Assembly: GCA_044892525.1 (NCBI GenBank)
Contig: CM097885.1
Coordinates: forward strand, 35,218,001-35,282,000
DNA length: 64,000 nucleotides
Reading direction: 5' to 3'
Source: Schmidtea polychroa
Taxonomy: Eukaryota
In this document: piece by piece, positions 1 through 52,506 of the stretch
Layout: the number at the start of each line of letters is the position of its first letter
Numbering within the stretch: the stretch's first letter is position 1
Notes under the pieces: model-generated
The model's input: only the letters and a program-made list of their open reading frames with translations
Told to the model about the DNA's origin: nothing
Databases searched by the model: none
Position numbers and translations under genes: made by a program

Positions 1-326
1 TTCTTCTGCGTTTTCTTTGATTTCTTTCAGAATGACTATCAGGATGGTTTTCACTGGATTCTTTTTCTTTATCCTGCCACTCTAGTTCTTTTATTTTTTG
101 TTTTTTATCTTCTAACTCTTTCAATTTTGCTTGCTCATTGAAATCTTCCAACTCTTTTATAGCTTTAATTGTTGGCCCCTGTTGTTGTGTTATTACCTCA
201 TTTAATATTATAGATTCAGCATGTTGAGTTGTATCTTTTTTATTATATTTATCTTGTTCTGATTGTAATTTTTTTAAAAGTGCTAATCATTCTTCATATA
301 CCATTTTAATGGTATCAAAAATGGTA

Positions 327-920
327 TCATAGTTCGAAGGGCTTCAAGTATAATCCTTTACCATTTTTAGTTTTACAAAGGCATCCATTCTTTAAAGATT
401 TACATATTTTTTTTAAATCTTCTTTATCTTTTGAAGATAAAGATTCAGATGTAGAAATTTGATTTTTTAAAAAATCATTTAAACCTCTACCTTTATAAGG
501 ATCAAGATAGAGACCTTTGCCCTGAGACTTTTGCCGACTCCCCTCATATGGATTAAGATAGAGACCCTTTCCAACGGACACTCCCCCTTTAGCTTGCCCT
601 ACCTTCTTCATTGAATCGATTTCAGTTTGTAGTTTTTCTTTTTCTAGGTCTGTCTTTTGAGATTCTTTAGCTTTTTGAACTGTAGTTGCAATTCCTCCAG
701 CTATTCCAGCAGCACCTGATAAACCAGCAATGATTGCAGGTATTAAAGCAGCTAATGGAAGAATGCCACCTTCTTTAGCTTCGTGGAGCTTCGCTCTAAC
801 TTGTTCTTTTACATGTTTTCCAATAAAATATTTTTTACCATCAATTACTACTGATTTATTTTTATTTGAATTTATTAATTCTTGCAGAGATTCTTCAGTA
901 GAGGAACTCTTCGAGGTCAT
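327..920 (-). CDS. Adenovirus pX/mu-like virion core or membrane-active protein of the Polinton
   Basis: KEGG-ILPLAALIPAIIAGLSGAAGIAGG resembles adenovirus pX (GG-ILPLLIPLIAAAIGA) after a GG adenain-type cleavage site; three GKGLYLxP(Y/F) repeats. Confidence 0.65.
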   Translation of the reverse strand: MTSKSSSTEESLQELINSNKNKSVVIDGKKYFIGKHVKEQVRAKLHEAKEGGILPLAALIPAIIAGLSGAAGIAGGIATTVQKAKESQKTDLEKEKLQTEIDSMKKVGQAKGGVSVGKGLYLNPYEGSRQKSQGKGLYLDPYKGRGLNDFLKNQISTSESLSSKDKEDLKKICKSLKNGCLCKTKNGKGLYLKPFEL

Positions 921-935
921 TTTATAATAAACAAA

Positions 936-1726
936 ATGGATATTTGGAAACCAATTTTAAATAGACATAAGAGTAAATTTAATAATAAAGTATTTCCTGA
1001 TAATTTTAGATTATTAATTGTTGGTTCTTCTGGATGTGGAAAGAATGTACTTGTTTTGAGAATGTTACTTGAAGATGATTTTTTAGATTATAATAATTTA
1101 ATCTTTTATTCTACAACCATAAATCAACCAGAATTACAACTTTTGAAATGTGGATTTGAAAATAAATTAACTAAAAAAGCAATAATTGATATTTTTAAAA
1201 ATCAACATTGGTGTCCTGAAGAAGTTTTTCAACCTTGTGATATGGTTGATTGGTATAAGGAAAAGATTTTAGAATCAGATATTAGTAAAAAAATGATTAT
1301 ATTTGTGAAGAAGGGCAGGAGGCAATTCAAGTTTTATTCTCTAATAAACCTGAAGATGTTTTACATTGTGATTTACTTCCTAAAGATAAAAAGAATCTAG
1401 TTATATTTGATGATGTTGTTAATATGAAAAATCAAGAGATTCAAAAGAGTTACTTTACACGAGGTCGACATAATAATTGTAATGTTATTTATATATCTCA
1501 AACATATTATGCTTTAGATAAAAATTCAATAAGAAATAATTCCAATTGTTTTATATTTTTTAAATTAGATCGCCGTGATAAGAATATGATTTATAATGAT
1601 TTATTTTCAAATGTTGAACCTGATAAGCAAATGTTTGATATGTTTGTTGATAATCATTGGAAAGAAAAATATAATTATATTTATTTGGATAGAGAAGAAG
1701 GTGAAATATGGAAAAGTTTGTTTTAG
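936..1726 (+). pseudogene. Polinton DNA-packaging ATPase (A32/FtsK-HerA class) with one frameshift
   Basis: Walker A GSSGCGKN. Adding one A to the A7 run at 1287-1293 gives ...KDKKNLVIFDDVVN (Walker B) continuing into the 1424-1726 ORF with RGRH, ISQ and IRNN motifs. Confidence 0.88.
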
Positions 1727-1737
1727 GGCTTGTCGAC

Positions 1738-3123
1738 TTAAAAATCTGTTTTCTGTAGTTCATTATTATAAAATCTACCTAATATTTTTTCATTATTTAA
1801 ATCAAAGATGCTATATGTTATTGGAGTTGTATAATGTATTTTATTTATAATAAAAATTTCATTTGTCCATTTTGCTGTGAATCCTTTTTCAAATTTATTT
1901 TTATATTTAAATATTCTTACTCGGTCACCAATTTTAAACTTTGGTTTTTCAATAACATCATTTTCAATATTTACCACTTTAATGGTTTCAGGCTTCATGG
2001 AAGCATTTAAAGGTGTTAATTTTATAGAACTATGTACATCATTATTATATTCATTTACAATCTTTTGTAACAATTCATTGTTCCATTTTTGTTTTCCAAT
2101 AGCAGTAAAATATTTCCACATTTTATTTTTTAATGTTCTATTTAATCTTTCAACCACGACTGCTTTTCCTTCGTTTTCTGTTGAATATAATTTAATATCA
2201 TTTTCATTTAAAAACTTTGTAAAAACTTTGTTATAAAATTCTGTTCCTTTATCACACCATAAATATTTTGGGATTCTTTGATTTTCTTCAAATATATTTT
2301 CAAATGCTTCTGTAATAGAATATCCTGTTTTATTTTCTAAACATCTTGCAAAAGCAAATCTTGTATATAAATCTATTACAGTTAAAATTATTTTATATTT
2401 TTCAGGGTCTGATGATTTGGGCATAAAGACTAAATCTGCAGACCATGTTTGATCTTTTTCATGTACTTGAACTTTTAAATATTTTTTATTTTTTCTAAAT
2501 TCATGGTGTAATTCCTTTGCATATTTTATTTCTGATTCTGTTGGGGTTTGTAAACTAGTCTTGGCTGTACTCTCGAGGGATCTTTCAATCTCTGCTTGTT
2601 CGATAATCTTTTTATAAGCAACATCTTTTGCTTTCCTAGGAAGTCTTGCACCCATGGTGATCGGACTGTGTCCTAAGCCTATGAAAATCTTACCTTTCAT
2701 TGCTAATTTAACTAGAGCTCTTTGAATCTTTTCTTGGGTTGATGGATTTTCAATATTATTTAAATCATGAATTAAATTTACATCTGCTACATGTCTATCT
2801 CTAAGATTATTTGAGTTGTATGCAATGTCATGTTTTAAAGCTGCTTGATCAATTCTATTAATTGGTTCTTCTCCAGGTTTGGGATTATTATTTTCATCTA
2901 ATCTAATATCCAATCTTGTTCCTGGTCCAGTATAGTTGTGTTTGAATAAATGTCTTTCACCTGGATATTTTTCAGTAGTAAAGGGTTTTAATATTGAAGA
3001 TGTTGTTTTTGAAGATTGTAGATCGCCTCCTGTATGTTTTTTAGTTTTTAAATGACTTGCTTTATGATGTCTTGTAACTTGACAATTACAAGTTTCACAT
3101 CTCCAATATTTATTTAGAGACAT
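1738..3123 (-). CDS. Fusion ORF: C2H2-type zinc finger, parvovirus-VP1u-like phospholipase A2, rve/DDE integrase
   Basis: CETC..H..H; NYTGPGT and DQAALKHDIAY (Ca-loop and HD dyad); WSADL, WCDKGTEF and VERLNRTLK (DDE); KFKIGDRVRI..W C-terminal domain; no chromodomain. Confidence 0.88.
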   Translation of the reverse strand: MSLNKYWRCETCNCQVTRHHKASHLKTKKHTGGDLQSSKTTSSILKPFTTEKYPGERHLFKHNYTGPGTRLDIRLDENNNPKPGEEPINRIDQAALKHDIAYNSNNLRDRHVADVNLIHDLNNIENPSTQEKIQRALVKLAMKGKIFIGLGHSPITMGARLPRKAKDVAYKKIIEQAEIERSLESTAKTSLQTPTESEIKYAKELHHEFRKNKKYLKVQVHEKDQTWSADLVFMPKSSDPEKYKIILTVIDLYTRFAFARCLENKTGYSITEAFENIFEENQRIPKYLWCDKGTEFYNKVFTKFLNENDIKLYSTENEGKAVVVERLNRTLKNKMWKYFTAIGKQKWNNELLQKIVNEYNNDVHSSIKLTPLNASMKPETIKVVNIENDVIEKPKFKIGDRVRIFKYKNKFEKGFTAKWTNEIFIINKIHYTTPITYSIFDLNNEKILGRFYNNELQKTDF

Positions 3124-3152
3124 TTTAAAATGTTAAAATATCAGGGATTATA

Positions 3153-4445
3153 TTAAGAATCTCCCCTAACATTTTCGATTATTGAAATCTTTCCACCATA
3201 TAATTTCATTTCTATTTTCTTTTCTTCTAATATTAATGTATATACTTTAGCTTTAAAATTAGAATCCTTTGTTACATGAAGTGTAACATCAACATTATTT
3301 ATGTTTAATCGATCATCTTGGTCTGATACATTTATACAAAATATAGAATATAAATTTTTGAAATCTTCTAAACTTAATTGCGGTTCAACTTTGAAATCAT
3401 AACATGTTTCAATATAATTTAGATATGGGAATATGTTTTCATTATTTTCAATATTAAATTCCATTCTATTTATTGGATAATAAGAACTATTTAATTGAAT
3501 TTGGATTGTTTTTAAATTATCATCTCCAATCTTTTGAATAAATAGATTGTTATTTTTTTGGAAAGATGAATCTGTTTCTTTGAATCCAATCAAGATATAT
3601 CTTGGTCGGTATGCTAAATTTGCTACCTTTATAGAATATGTTGAACCCTCTGTCATACTAAATTCACTACAGATTCTATTTAAATAATTTACATTTATAG
3701 ACTTGTTGGAATTTAATCTTTCAAGGAGTTTAATCTCAGAATGTGGGTTTAATGTCCATTCAGGTATATGTAATTCAAGTGTTGATAATTTTAATTTAGC
3801 TTTTGTATCTACAGCTCCATAGAACAATCTTTTATCACCTTCTACTCTATTACAGATGAATTCTATAAAAACATTATGAAGTATACGATTATAGTTTTGA
3901 AGGAATCCAAACAAGTGTTTTAATTCAAAATAACCTTCAAATTTTTTAGATTTATAAAGTTCAGCTCTTTTATGGTAACCATGGTTTACATCTAAACCAT
4001 CTTTATCTAAATCCCCTTTATTAACATCAGGAATCCAACCTGTTAATTCACCATATTCGTTTTTATAATCACAACCAGTCAAAATAAAATTTAACATTGT
4101 AGAATATACTCCCGGATGCAAAACAGTTTCAATTTCTGATGATCCTAGTTTTAATCTCATGTTGGAGAATAAATTTGGAAAGAAATTATTTTCTAGGGTT
4201 ATATCTTTGTTTGCTTCAATTTCTAATTCTACTTTGTAATATAATTTGGCATTACAAATATCTATTGGGTTTGATGTTTGAAGAGATTGAAAAACTATAT
4301 CACCCCTACGATTTAAGTTTGCAATAGATCCTGAAGTTGGGGAGATTTTAAGTACATCATTTTTCTTGATTTCATGAGTAAATTCTTTATTATAATCAAG
4401 ATTTAATTTATTTTTTTCTTGAATTTTAAGATTTATATTATTCAT
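3153..4445 (-). CDS. Polinton major capsid protein (double jelly-roll, hexon-like)
   Basis: Intact 430-aa beta-rich ORF with LNxxGDIxF, LENNFFPNLFS, ELKHLFGF and PRYILIGF motifs; lies next to the integrase and ATPase. Confidence 0.8.
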   Translation of the reverse strand: MNNINLKIQEKNKLNLDYNKEFTHEIKKNDVLKISPTSGSIANLNRRGDIVFQSLQTSNPIDICNAKLYYKVELEIEANKDITLENNFFPNLFSNMRLKLGSSEIETVLHPGVYSTMLNFILTGCDYKNEYGELTGWIPDVNKGDLDKDGLDVNHGYHKRAELYKSKKFEGYFELKHLFGFLQNYNRILHNVFIEFICNRVEGDKRLFYGAVDTKAKLKLSTLELHIPEWTLNPHSEIKLLERLNSNKSINVNYLNRICSEFSMTEGSTYSIKVANLAYRPRYILIGFKETDSSFQKNNNLFIQKIGDDNLKTIQIQLNSSYYPINRMEFNIENNENIFPYLNYIETCYDFKVEPQLSLEDFKNLYSIFCINVSDQDDRLNINNVDVTLHVTKDSNFKAKVYTLILEEKKIEMKLYGGKISIIENVRGDS

Positions 4446-4501
4446 TTTTATATATTAAAATTTACACACACACAATAGGATTAATTAAATATATTTTGTA
4501 A

Positions 4502-4583
4502 GCCATTATAGCGGAGTGGGAATAGGCTTCAATTTTATCACCGGGAGTACCGGGTTCAATTTTCGATTTTGGTCAATTTTTTT
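4502..4583 (+). ncRNA. tRNA-like Pol III unit 1 (degenerate)
   Basis: A-box TAGCGGAGTGG at 4509 (tRNA position 8), B-box-like GGTTCAATT at 4553, ~73-nt body, T7 terminator; the anticodon arm does not pair. Confidence 0.5.
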
Positions 4584-4744
4584 CGATATTTTTTTTCAAC
4601 GGAATCTGATTCAGCGTACTGATTTTAGTATATATTTAAATTTTCAGATGGATCTGAGTGGTAGTTGTCGAGAAAATGAATAATTAATTATCAATTTCAT
4701 CAATAAATAGTCACACATTAACAACTTATTTTATATTGAGTATA

Positions 4745-4825
4745 GCTCTAATAGCTTAGTGGTAATAGCACTCGACTGCATTGCCAATACCAATGGGTTC
4801 AAATCCCATTTCGGTCATTTTTTTT
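4745..4825 (+). ncRNA. tRNA-Cys(GCA)-derived Pol III unit 2
   Basis: A-box TAGCTTAGTGG at 4752, perfect T-arm ATGGG-TTCAAAT-CCCAT (4793-4809), AGCACTCGACTGCA resembling tRNA-Cys, T8 terminator; acceptor and anticodon stems imperfect. Confidence 0.7.
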
Positions 4826-4988
4826 CAAATTTTTTTTTTAACAAAATATTGATCAGCATACTCGATTTAGTACTTGTACAAATTTTTAATGAGATTGGTC
4901 AACGGCAACTCTTGGAAATTTAAGATCAAAAACGTTTTAACTTAAGCTACCAAAAATTAATATATCCAATAAAAAAATATTTATAAAA

Positions 4989-5288
4989 ATGGATGAGTTA
5001 AAAGAAAGAATGAGAAATGAATTGAATGAAGTTAAACATAAGAGAATGAAAAGAAGAGAAGAAGAACCATTAGAATACATCAAAGAGTTGATGGTAGATA
5101 ATGAAAAGTATCGACATTTTTATATGAAGGCTGTAGATGTTGCTGATATAAGATTGAAGAAAATGAAACAATTACAGGAAAGAGTTAAAGAACTTGAATC
5201 GATTATTTATAGTCTAAAAAATGACAAAAATTCAAACCTTGATGGCGCAGTGGGAATAGACTGGCACAGTGGTTCAAATCACATCTGA
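4989..5288 (+). CDS. Small charged coiled-coil protein of the Polinton, function unknown
   Basis: 99-aa ORF with AAAAATGG start context and E/K/R-rich heptads. Confidence 0.5.
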   Translation: MDELKERMRNELNEVKHKRMKRREEEPLEYIKELMVDNEKYRHFYMKAVDVADIRLKKMKQLQERVKELESIIYSLKNDKNSNLDGAVGIDWHSGSNHI

Positions 5289-5302
5289 GGTTAGTTTTTT
5301 TT
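5235..5302 (+). ncRNA. Short tRNA-like Pol III unit 3 lacking an anticodon arm
   Basis: A-box TGGCGCAGTGG at 5243, B-box-like GGTTCAAATC at 5271, terminal stem AACCTT/GAGGTT, T8 terminator; overlaps the end of the 99-aa ORF. Confidence 0.55.
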
Positions 5303-5968
5303 CAACATAAAATAATATTAAAAATTTGAAAATAATATTGAAAATAGTGTGGGTATCTTATATTTATAAAGTACTTGTATATTTTATTTTATTTATTTTA
5401 TTTTATTTTATTTTTTTTTAATTAATTATTTTTTAAACATAAATATGAAAAAAAAAATATTGAAACGGGTGATGGTGGCGAACCGGTAATTATCGCCACC
5501 AGTCTTTCGAACACCCCCGGATCGATCCCGGTAATGTGCACATTTATTTCTCAGTTGTTTTCGGACCTCTTTCGAATTCACTTTCGAATTCATTTGTACT
5601 TTCGAGCAGCACACTTAAAACGCCGATGAAATCGTATTCGAGCGAGAAGCGAATAATAAGGTGTGCTGCTATTATCGAATTGATTCTGATGTATGAGTCT
5701 GGCCAGCTTGTATATTGGAAGAGATTTGATAAACGAAAGAGGTTGAATAAAAAAAAAATGATCCGGATCAAAAAAACTGTTGAGGGGACAGTGAAAAAAA
5801 AAAAAAAAAATACCACTGTCCTCTCAGAGCAGTTTTACTATTTCATAAAATTTTTTATTTTTAAAACTTTCAAAACCTTAAGGTGATCAGGCGACCTAGA
5901 TCATTATGAATTAGGTAATCTGATATTCTTATAACATTAAATCCTTATAACATTAAATCCTTAAGACC

Positions 5969-6216
5969 AAGTAGTGAGGAATCTATGCACCCCGTTACCT
6001 TTTCTCGGAATTACTAATCTATAAATACATCTATTCCGAACTTTTTTACTTTTAAAGGAAGAAATTAAGGGTTAATGGCAATAGGGGACAAAGTTTAAAA
6101 GTTAAAAAAAGTGAAGAATATGGGGTAAAAAAGCATATAAATGTGGAAAATATGGGTCAATAGCGCTGTTTTTTTTGAGGGTGGGGGTGCTTGGGTGCAT
6201 AGATTCCTCACTACTT
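5969..6216. repeat. Perfect 24-bp inverted repeat containing the Polinton-type terminus AGTAGT
   Basis: AAGTAGTGAGGAATCTATGCACCC (5969-5992) and its exact reverse complement (6193-6216). Confidence 0.85.
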
Positions 6217-6860
6217 TCTTAACAAAGATTTTTTCTTTTATGAAGTTCTATATTACGCCGGAAGTGCACTACGTAAACAATTTGAATTAATAATGGCGCA
6301 TAATAAAAGTTTTAATGTTTTGTGGCATTTCCGCAACCTCTTAACAATGAGTGAAAATGAGATTTTAAGAGGGTGTAAAAAATTAGAACATTTACTTGCT
6401 GATAGAGTGGAAAAAGATATTTCAAATATAGAAATGCAATATTTTAGAAATAGTTATAATAGTGAAAAATTATCATCAATGCAATTACCAAACTATATTT
6501 GCGAGAAAAATCTGTCAGTGTCTCTTCAAATTTGTTTTATTGCGTTGCGAATACTTGTAACTCTTCATTTGTCAGTAGTAAGCACAGAGCGTAATTTTTC
6601 AAAATTAAAATTAATTAAAACACATTTCAGATATAGGATAGATTAGGCGATTTATCAACAATTTCAATCACGCGAAGTTTATTAAAAAAATTAACATGGC
6701 TAATTTAATAGATACATTCGCTCAGGCAAAAGCTCGAAAATTTAAATTCATGTAATATTTTTTATGCAACAATAAAACAAATATATTTATACCTTAAGAT
6801 TTTAGGGCAGAAGTTGAAGAATTGGCCTAGGGGGCGCTCTATACCCATGAACTGGCCCAG
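6217..6860 (+). mobile_element. hAT transposon 3' remnant (dimerisation domain)
   Basis: ALRILVTLHLSVVSTERNFSKLKLIKT...FAQAKARK, followed by a GC-rich hAT-like end near 6825-6860. Confidence 0.75.

Positions 6861-23035: not shown

Positions 23036-52506
<29,471 letters not shown>

What the first reader, a model, noticed from the sequence alone, without database searches (positions are those of the whole stretch)
4502..5302. Three tRNA-like Pol III units inside a Polinton: possible VA-RNA analogues
Seen: three co-oriented A-box, B-box, T7-8 units at 4502, 4745 and 5235, between the capsid gene and the terminus. The promoter boxes and terminators persist while the anticodon arms are unpaired or absent. 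Unit 2 looks tRNA-Cys-derived. Units 1 and 2 head diverged ~243-bp tandem modules. Established: adenoviruses, relatives of Polintons, encode Pol III VA RNAs, and tDNA boxes can act as chromatin barriers. Inference: element-encoded small RNAs (RNAi decoys) or TFIIIC insulators. I do not recall this as a described Polinton feature.
Basis: partly seen in the sequence, partly recalled or inferred. Interest (0 to 1): 0.75.

Follow-up and report, generated by a model that had tools for sequence, protein, structure and literature searches.

The report
Polinton-end Pol III hairpin RNA gene
Two of the three tRNA-like units flagged in this virus-like transposon are a scrap copied from the host's ribosomal DNA spacer, while the third and an overlooked, strongly folded 380-base neighbour belong to the element and likely form a small-RNA gene that would help it cope with host RNA silencing.

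Summary
The three A-box/B-box/T-run units are real and lie in a complete 15.2-kb Polinton, but they are not one system. Units 1 and 2 sit in a 497-nt block that is 93-97% identical to the host rDNA intergenic spacer. It is missing from 19 of 30 element ends picked without regard to flanks: a recent capture. Unit 3 belongs to the element; its 'absent anticodon arm' is a deletion in a minority of copies. Its 22-mer has 2305 genomic copies; 30 of 30 checked lie at Polinton ends. Substitutions shared between copies keep base pairs (13 of 16) far more often than private ones (20 of 67). Best reading: a terminal Pol III cassette whose RNA is built like a gammaherpesvirus TMER and likely engages host small-RNA machinery. 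Pol III transcription and function are untested. Earlier scan notes report the same cassette in other copies of this genome.

The parts
1..6215 (.). Right part of a ~15.2-kb Polinton; the left end lies 9,017 nt before the window
   Evidence: pPolB, integrase and capsid hits; termini AGTAGT...ACTACT with the same 6 nt on both sides
1738..3123 (-). rve integrase with N-terminal phospholipase A2-like domain
   Evidence: PF00665 E 7.7e-12, PF08398 E 1.9e-9
3153..4445 (-). Double jelly-roll major capsid protein gene
   Evidence: PF21738 E 4.8e-27; 98 of 98 scored genomic matches 99-100% identical
4457..4953 (+). Captured block of host rDNA intergenic spacer holding units 1 and 2
   Evidence: 93-97% identical to the spacer ~3.1 kb upstream of 18S, antisense to the rRNA genes; same boundaries as empty-site copies
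4502..4583 (+). Unit 1: degenerate tRNA-like unit (A box 4509, B-box-like, T7), rDNA-derived
   Evidence: same sequence in rDNA units
4745..4825 (+). Unit 2: degenerate tRNA-like unit (A box 4752, B box, T8), rDNA spacer 243-nt subrepeat
   Evidence: Rfam tRNA 32.4 bits; 2-3 tandem copies per rDNA unit
4989..5288 (+). 99-codon ORF, no Pfam hit, accessory; runs into unit 3 in this copy
   Evidence: absent from many element ends
5236..5302 (+). Unit 3: element-borne box-rich tRNA-like unit (A box 5243, B box repeated 1-3 times, T8); this copy has one B-box repeat
   Evidence: 29 of 30 flank-blind ends; variants
5467..5856 (+). Unit 4 (overlooked): tRNA-like head (A box 5476, B-box-like GGATCGATCC about 5519) plus structured body and A tracts, ending at T4 (about 5834) or T6 (5851)
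5605..5670 (+). Hairpin H2 of unit 4 (12-bp stem, large variable loop)
   Evidence: fold; A-U, G-U and G-C states at pair 5613/5662
5672..5732 (+). Hairpin H3 of unit 4: 25 bp, 7-nt loop, pre-miRNA-sized
   Evidence: fold; six shared changes, all keeping pairs
5773..5836 (+). Hairpin H4 with poly(A) loop just before the T runs
   Evidence: z -7.7; A-U / G-C compensatory pair 5785/5822
5841..6215 (.). Right terminal inverted repeat (~370 nt)
   Evidence: 95% identical over 376 columns to the left end
6216..6221 (+). 6-nt target-site duplication TTCTTA
   Evidence: same hexamer before the left terminus

Best explanation
This Polinton carries at its end a box-rich tRNA-like unit (unit 3) and a 380-nt tRNA-headed, hairpin-rich unit (unit 4) that is likely transcribed by RNA polymerase III and would act on host small-RNA silencing, whereas units 1 and 2 are a piece of host rDNA spacer picked up by one sub-lineage. 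Shown: rDNA identity and patchy presence of units 1 and 2; presence of units 3 and 4 at nearly all element ends; structure-keeping variation in unit 4. Inferred: TFIIIC binds the A/B boxes; unit 3 works mainly as DNA (a Pol III landing pad or chromatin barrier ~250 nt upstream of unit 4); Pol III reads unit 4 from about 5467 to the T runs at 5834-5856; hairpin H3 is a Dicer/Exportin-5 substrate that yields a small RNA or titrates the pathway, as TMERs and VA RNAs do. My odds by step: rDNA capture 0.95, unit 4 a selected RNA 0.8, Pol III 0.7, action on small-RNA silencing 0.4.
For: rDNA origin: block found whole in 7 of 10 rDNA places fetched, partly deleted in 1, as an 81-82% diverged variant in 1, absent in 1. 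For the 5' part, rDNA-rDNA distance 0.000, Polinton-rDNA 0.0135, Polinton-Polinton 0.0163 (58 Polinton and 3 rDNA rows). A further tRNA-like unit lies 243 nt upstream in rDNA, outside the captured block, and no other Polinton sequence matches the rDNA stretches. Cassette: 30 of 30 flank-blind unit-4 loci lie at Polinton ends, 12 of them beside a pPolB gene only 66-75% identical to this copy's, 29 with unit 3. Unit 4 folds at z -7.4; + strand z -4.8 versus - strand -2.4. Shared changes at confidently paired sites keep pairing 13 of 16 versus 20 of 67 private ones (p 3e-4); in the flank-blind set alone 8 of 11 versus 3 of 19. The 3 breaks lie in the 5' leader, where a 1-nt indel shifts the alignment and the variants refold with an intact stem. 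Longest T run in the body is 4 or less in 109 of 111 rows while A runs reach 8-27. A box matches in 109 of 111 rows, B-box-like motif in 105 of 111. Weak hint only: contigs of two runs guessed to be RNA (one study) cover unit 4 and unit 3.
Against: No raw reads, strand, ends or polymerase data were available; no listed holder is on record as RNA. Unit 4's B box has A where tRNA B boxes usually have T, and its head gets no Rfam tRNA hit. The most diverged capsid-bearing copy seen (L133, 87% nt) has neither unit at that end, and L081 lacks unit 4, so the cassette is not required at every end. Copies are closely related (mostly above 88% in unit 4), so covariation rests on about a dozen sites that are not independent; the reverse-strand pairing rule also reaches p 0.044 in the large set. 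One copy deletes H2 entirely and others delete parts of H3. No function was tested; the anti-silencing step rests on analogy.
Confidence: 0.55

Rival explanations
1. The whole cluster works as DNA: TFIIIC/TFIIIB-bound boxes spaced about 240-250 nt apart form a chromatin barrier or open-chromatin anchor at the element ends, and any RNA is a by-product. Capture of the rDNA units adds two more such sites.
For: Unit 3 keeps its boxes and T run while both stem strands vary independently; its B box occurs in 1-3 copies and the unit is tandemly duplicated in several ends. A-box spacings cluster: U1-U2 236-244 (8 cases), U3-U4 205-279 in 24 of 25, U2-U3 482-492 (9 cases). The cassette sits directly inside the TIR at either end.
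Against: Does not explain the 300 nt of hairpins behind unit 4's boxes, their pair-keeping variation or the absence of T5 runs.
Confidence: 0.22
2. Unit 4 is a tRNA-derived SINE or a host non-coding RNA gene that a Polinton ancestor captured, as it later captured the rDNA scrap; it now rides along and its fold is inherited from that earlier life.
For: tRNA head + unrelated body + A tracts is the SINE plan (established knowledge). The element demonstrably captures host Pol III-type DNA. L133 lacks the cassette at that end.
Against: 0 of 30 flank-blind loci and 0 of 12 are free copies. Changes that spread with the element keep pairing whereas private ones do not, which points to selection during Polinton amplification. 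No Rfam family matches. A single host gene or a diverged SINE could not be excluded: searches return only the best-scoring or first copies.
Confidence: 0.13
3. The hairpins act in single-stranded DNA during protein-primed strand-displacement replication or packaging, or as the 3' end of a Pol II transcript (for example of the 99-codon ORF).
For: Position beside the TIR; G-T pairs are also tolerated in DNA hairpins; an AATAAA and an A tract lie near 5750, where contigs of the RNA-guess runs have loose poly(A) ends.
Against: Conserved A/B boxes at the head and no T5 in the body fit Pol III; many ends lack the ORF yet keep unit 4; some complete copies, this one included, carry the cassette at one end only (no A/B pair in L031).
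Confidence: 0.1

Closest known systems
Murine gammaherpesvirus 68 TMERs (PMC4337559, passages read)
   Same: Cluster at a genome end; Pol III internal promoter in a non-functional tRNA-like head followed by hairpins; the paper also raises a cis effect of the Pol III promoter.
   Different: Unit 4 is ~380 nt, its head is not predicted to fold as a cloverleaf, it has A tracts, and there is one long unit plus box-only units rather than eight tRNA-miRNA hybrids; processing untested; carried by an integrated Polinton.
Adenovirus VA RNAI/II (PMC7589676, passages read)
   Same: Internal box A and box B; strongly folded RNA; possible Dicer/Exportin-5 decoy; a virus lineage related to Polintons (relation recalled).
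   Different: No terminal stem joining the 5' and 3' ends; more than twice the recalled ~160-nt length; no Rfam match; units 1-3 lack a stable fold.
Bovine leukaemia virus Pol III miRNA cluster (PMC12498455, abstract and outline seen)
   Same: Degenerate type 2 promoters driving hairpins in an integrated viral element.
   Different: In BLV the A boxes lie in the pre-miRNA and the B boxes beyond the terminator; here both boxes lie in a tRNA-like head ahead of the hairpins.
tRNA and other ncRNA genes of polinton-like viruses and virophages (PMC12220804, passages read)
   Same: Polinton relatives do carry tRNA genes (558 Rfam hits in 8,300 genomes; also 3 rRNA and 10 miRNA hits), thought to come from the host.
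   Different: Those are read as intact tRNAs for codon supply; the units here fail ARAGORN and lack a paired anticodon arm.
tRNA-derived SINEs (recalled)
   Same: tRNA head, unrelated body, A-rich tracts.
   Different: No free copies or own target-site duplications seen; always embedded at a Polinton end.

Membership tests
Polinton/Maverick | Protein-primed family B DNA polymerase | tested here: met
   1464-aa ORF, PF03175 E 2.1e-15
Polinton/Maverick | Retroviral-type integrase | tested here: met
   PF00665 E 7.7e-12
Polinton/Maverick | Double jelly-roll major capsid protein | tested here: met
   PF21738 E 4.8e-27
Polinton/Maverick | Packaging ATPase, protease, minor capsid protein | tested here: inconclusive
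   Pox_A32 hit below cut-off (E 0.006) in an ORF that is split in this copy; 154-aa and 254-aa candidates have no Pfam hit, roles guessed from recalled motifs and position
Polinton/Maverick | Long TIRs, AG...CT termini, 6-nt TSD | tested here: met
Functional tRNA gene (units 1-3) | Cloverleaf with paired anticodon stem | tested here: not met
   ARAGORN finds 0 in the window and 0 in five sister loci; unit 2 Rfam alignment has mispaired stems
Adenovirus VA RNA | Internal box A and box B, T-run terminator | tested here: met
   By motif only, all four units
Adenovirus VA RNA | Terminal stem / central domain / apical stem fold and Rfam match | tested here: not met
   No such family among 11 Rfam matches up to E 10; unit 4's 5' end pairs locally; units 1 and 3 unstructured
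Adenovirus VA RNA | PKR or Dicer/Exportin-5 antagonism | not testable with these tools
   needs biochemistry
TMER-type tRNA-miRNA RNA (unit 4) | tRNA-like head with Pol III boxes followed by pre-miRNA-like hairpins before the terminator | tested here: met
TMER-type tRNA-miRNA RNA (unit 4) | Head folds as a tRNA (RNase Z substrate) | tested here: inconclusive
   A D-arm-like stem and a possible T-arm stem are visible in the sequence, but no Rfam tRNA hit and the MFE is not a cloverleaf
TMER-type tRNA-miRNA RNA (unit 4) | Pol III transcription and mature miRNAs | not testable with these tools
   only assembled contigs of runs of guessed type were served
tRNA-derived SINE | Dispersed free copies with own TSDs | tested here: not met
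   Unit 4: 30 of 30 at Polinton ends; unit 2 motif: of 14 loci 3 rDNA, 7 Polinton, 4 rearranged rDNA remnants; samples are the first in chromosome order, not genome-wide
Host rDNA intergenic spacer subrepeat (units 1 and 2) | Near-identical block at a fixed place in rDNA units | tested here: met

The most novel reading that the evidence does not exclude
Animal Polintons encode their own Pol III-made, tRNA-headed hairpin RNA that counters host small-RNA silencing, an invertebrate-side counterpart of adenovirus VA RNA and herpesvirus TMERs. This terminal cassette is swapped between lineages with different polymerases, gains extra TFIIIC sites by capturing host rDNA spacer, and helps explain how the family reached thousands of near-intact copies.
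Probability: 0.3. Interest if true: 0.85.

Novelty: new variant of a known kind. Interest (0 to 1): 0.58.

Why it matters
Polintons are described almost entirely by their proteins, and how a family keeps over a thousand young, largely intact copies in an animal genome is open. A conserved, structure-selected RNA gene at the element ends gives a concrete, testable candidate for a counter-defence or chromatin function, and a possible link to the origin of adenovirus VA RNAs. The rDNA-spacer capture shows the element sampling host Pol III-type DNA, and it warns that tRNA look-alikes inside a mobile element need not be its own.

Tried and rejected
Expression: no RNA holder listed. Six runs were laid as contigs. 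In the two RNA-guess runs of one study, summed word depth was about 1,000-26,000 over most of the unit-4 body, 250-1,300 over unit 3 and 28 or less over most of the rDNA block, while runs X3 and X4 (type unknown) showed no such contrast. The tool states that such depth cannot rank parts, and X1's main contig is of the module-free type, so low cover of units 1 and 2 is not used as evidence and the rest only as a weak hint. Run X10 laid nothing. Parent tRNAs: only host Trp, Lys and Arg were in hand; full-length unit 3 is nearest Trp (44 of 79 columns, z 4.9 versus 3.5 and 3.0), units 1 and 2 nearest Lys of the three: not decisive. The search meant to fetch tRNA-Cys listed only unit-2 copies in its first 100 rows. 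Targets: no hairpin arm has a complementary site within 5 edits elsewhere in the element. The weak Rfam mir-15, mir-392 and mir-1954 matches are far below their cut-offs and were rejected. My first guess that 5971-6215 was a separate MITE was wrong: it is part of the TIR. A first count of 11 of 11 shared changes keeping pairs left out the 5' leader; the fuller 13 of 16 is the figure used.

Full report
Setting. The window's first 6,215 nt are the right part of a Polinton. Pfam finds an rve integrase with a phospholipase A2-like domain and a double jelly-roll capsid protein, with a weak A32 ATPase hit. The neighbouring 10 kb (L031) hold a 1464-aa protein-primed polymerase. The element starts with AGTAGT at L031:984 and ends with ACTACT at window 6215, has ~370-nt TIRs (95% identical) and the same hexamer TTCTTA on both sides; total length about 15.2 kb. 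The family is young and large: 98 of 98 scored capsid matches are 99-100% identical. The host is a eukaryote with an AT-rich 781-Mb genome (eukaryotic rRNAs); I did not identify it.

Observation. A scan for A-box/B-box pairs finds 4 in the 64-kb window, all on + between 4509 and 5476, against 0.13 in shuffles (pattern written after seeing the units). None is a tRNA by ARAGORN; unit 2 reaches 32.4 bits on Rfam tRNA with broken stems. Units 1 and 3 fold no better than shuffles, unit 2 at z -2.8.

Units 1 and 2 come from host rDNA. An earlier scan note suggested this; I tested it. Window 4457-4953 matches the rDNA intergenic spacer at 93-97%, about 3.1 kb upstream of 18S and antisense to it. Of 10 rDNA places fetched, 7 hold the whole block, 1 holds it partly deleted, 1 holds an 81-82% diverged variant and 1 gave no hit. 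In rDNA, unit 1 is followed by 2-3 tandem 243-nt repeats of unit 2 and preceded, 243 nt upstream and outside the shared block, by another degenerate unit. Nothing else of the Polinton matches the rDNA stretches. For the 5' part, the three rDNA rows are identical, Polinton copies differ from them by 1.35% and from each other by 1.63%; for the 3' part the figures are 1.3%, 3.8% and 1.7%, on an alignment with ragged ends. Polinton copies without the block are common: it is in 28 of 30 copies picked with this window's capsid, but in 3 of 18 picked with foreign capsids and 11 of 30 picked by a unit-4 motif (3 of these partial). An old, diversified presence in rDNA and a young, patchy presence in the element give the direction rDNA to Polinton (inference). 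One Polinton end lies about 600 nt from a diverged spacer copy (L160), so contact occurs. Whether the capture helped the sub-lineage is unknown.

Unit 3 belongs to the element. It is found at 29 of 30 flank-blind ends and by BLAST in 16 of 18 foreign-capsid picks. The window's copy lacks 16 nt between two B-box repeats; most copies are 73-75 nt. Its diversity (0.094) exceeds that of the neighbouring segments (0.009-0.060; part of this may be alignment of the deletion). The boxes and T run are nearly constant while the 5' acceptor-side and T-arm-side strands vary independently (A box and terminator were required for extraction). Tandem duplicates with different 3' halves occur, so mosaics between paralogues are the simplest cause (inference). 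This is the pattern of a DNA-level TFIIIC site rather than a folded RNA.

Unit 4 is the main find. From 5467 the sequence has an A box inside a D-arm-like stem, a B-box-like GGATCGATCC, then hairpins H2, H3 (25 bp, 61 nt) and H4, with the first T5+ run 375 nt after the A box, just inside the TIR. It folds at z -7.4; the + strand folds better than the - strand. In 111 distinct rows from 140 of 150 element loci, changes shared by 3 or more rows keep pairing at 13 of 16 confidently paired sites and private changes at 20 of 67 (p 3e-4); the 30 flank-blind loci alone give 8 of 11 versus 3 of 19 (p 0.0045). True two-sided changes occur at 5613/5662 and 5785/5822. The three breaks fall in the 5' leader, where a 1-nt indel variant refolds with the stem intact. 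Against: rows are related, the structure was taken from the window's own copy, the reverse-strand rule reaches p 0.044 in the large set (0.27 in the small one), and single copies delete H2 or part of H3. The body avoids T5 (109 of 111 rows) but tolerates A8-27, as expected of a + strand Pol III template. An exact 22-mer of H3 occurs 2305 times (control 0). The first 30 in chromosome order are all at Polinton ends: 14 beside the capsid gene, 12 beside a polymerase gene 66-75% identical to this copy's, 4 with other element parts. So units 3 and 4 form a terminal cassette that can sit at either end and is shared by diverged lineages. It is not universal: L133, with the most diverged capsid seen, has the TIR directly after the capsid gene.

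Expression. No served run is on record as RNA. Contigs from two runs guessed to be RNA, both of one study, cover unit 4 and unit 3 and show loose poly(A) ends at the A tract near 5750; genomic A tracts vary in length, so this may be priming or an allele. Contigs give no strand, ends or level; I count this as a weak hint only.

Mechanism. Most likely, TFIIIC binds the boxes of units 3 and 4, Pol III makes a ~380-nt RNA from unit 4, and its pre-miRNA-sized hairpin enters or titrates the host Dicer/Exportin-5 route, easing silencing of the element; unit 3 serves as a neighbouring Pol III site or barrier; units 1 and 2 are passengers or extra sites. Only the anatomy, distribution and variation are shown. 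Rivals: a purely DNA-level barrier (0.22), a captured SINE or host gene (0.13), ssDNA or Pol II 3'-end structure (0.10).

Known systems. The layout is closest to gammaherpesvirus TMERs (tRNA-like head plus hairpins from a Pol III promoter; PMC4337559, passages). VA RNAs share the boxes and the decoy idea but have a terminal stem that unit 4 lacks (PMC7589676, passages). BLV miRNAs use degenerate type 2 promoters in a different arrangement (PMC12498455, abstract). tRNA genes are already reported in polinton-like viruses and virophages (PMC12220804, passages), so tRNA carriage as such is not new. Eight further searches (listings only) showed no title or abstract on a Pol III hairpin RNA in an animal Polinton or on tRNA-like units in this kind of rDNA spacer; the library lacks most subscription papers and Repbase entries, and I read no supplements. 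Earlier scan notes describe the same cassette in other copies of this genome and a Pol III hairpin unit in a Polinton of another genome; they are leads, not independent support.

Verdict. New variant of a known kind; interest 0.58.

Noticed in passing
L098:5245-6290 (host rDNA spacer, G000:C1): The host rDNA intergenic spacer itself holds a row of 4-5 degenerate tRNA-like A/B-box units at 243-nt spacing, antisense to the rRNA genes; a diverged spacer variant (L204) keeps unit 2's boxes, GCA triplet and T run. Possible Pol III barrier in rDNA.
   Followed up: partly
window 4509-5476 and L160-L189: A boxes fall at about 240-250-nt steps or twice that (U1-U2 243, U2-U3 about 490, U3-U4 about 249, U3 duplicates 214-232) although the parts have different origins; unexplained.
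   Followed up: partly
window 5971-6215: The outer ~245 nt of each TIR are bounded by their own inverted repeat, so the terminal motif occurs twice per end; sister copies have several unrelated TIR types behind the same cassette.
   Followed up: partly
L197-L200:1289-1500: Four rearranged rDNA remnants on C1 share an unrelated ~210-nt sequence joined exactly into the middle of unit 2; possibly an element that inserts into the tRNA-like unit.
   Followed up: no
window 936-1726: The ATPase-like gene is split into two ORFs in this copy.
   Followed up: no
L033, L034, L209: Host tRNA genes lie in long single-isotype tandem arrays (Lys period 424 nt, Arg 278 nt, Trp 284 nt with 846 motif matches).
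   Followed up: no
window 24402-29418: LTR retrotransposon with two identical 294-nt repeats and gag/pol pieces.
   Followed up: no
L031:5808-6362: 184-aa ORF right after the polymerase that resembles the polymerase's own C-terminal region by eye, a possible partial duplication.
   Followed up: no
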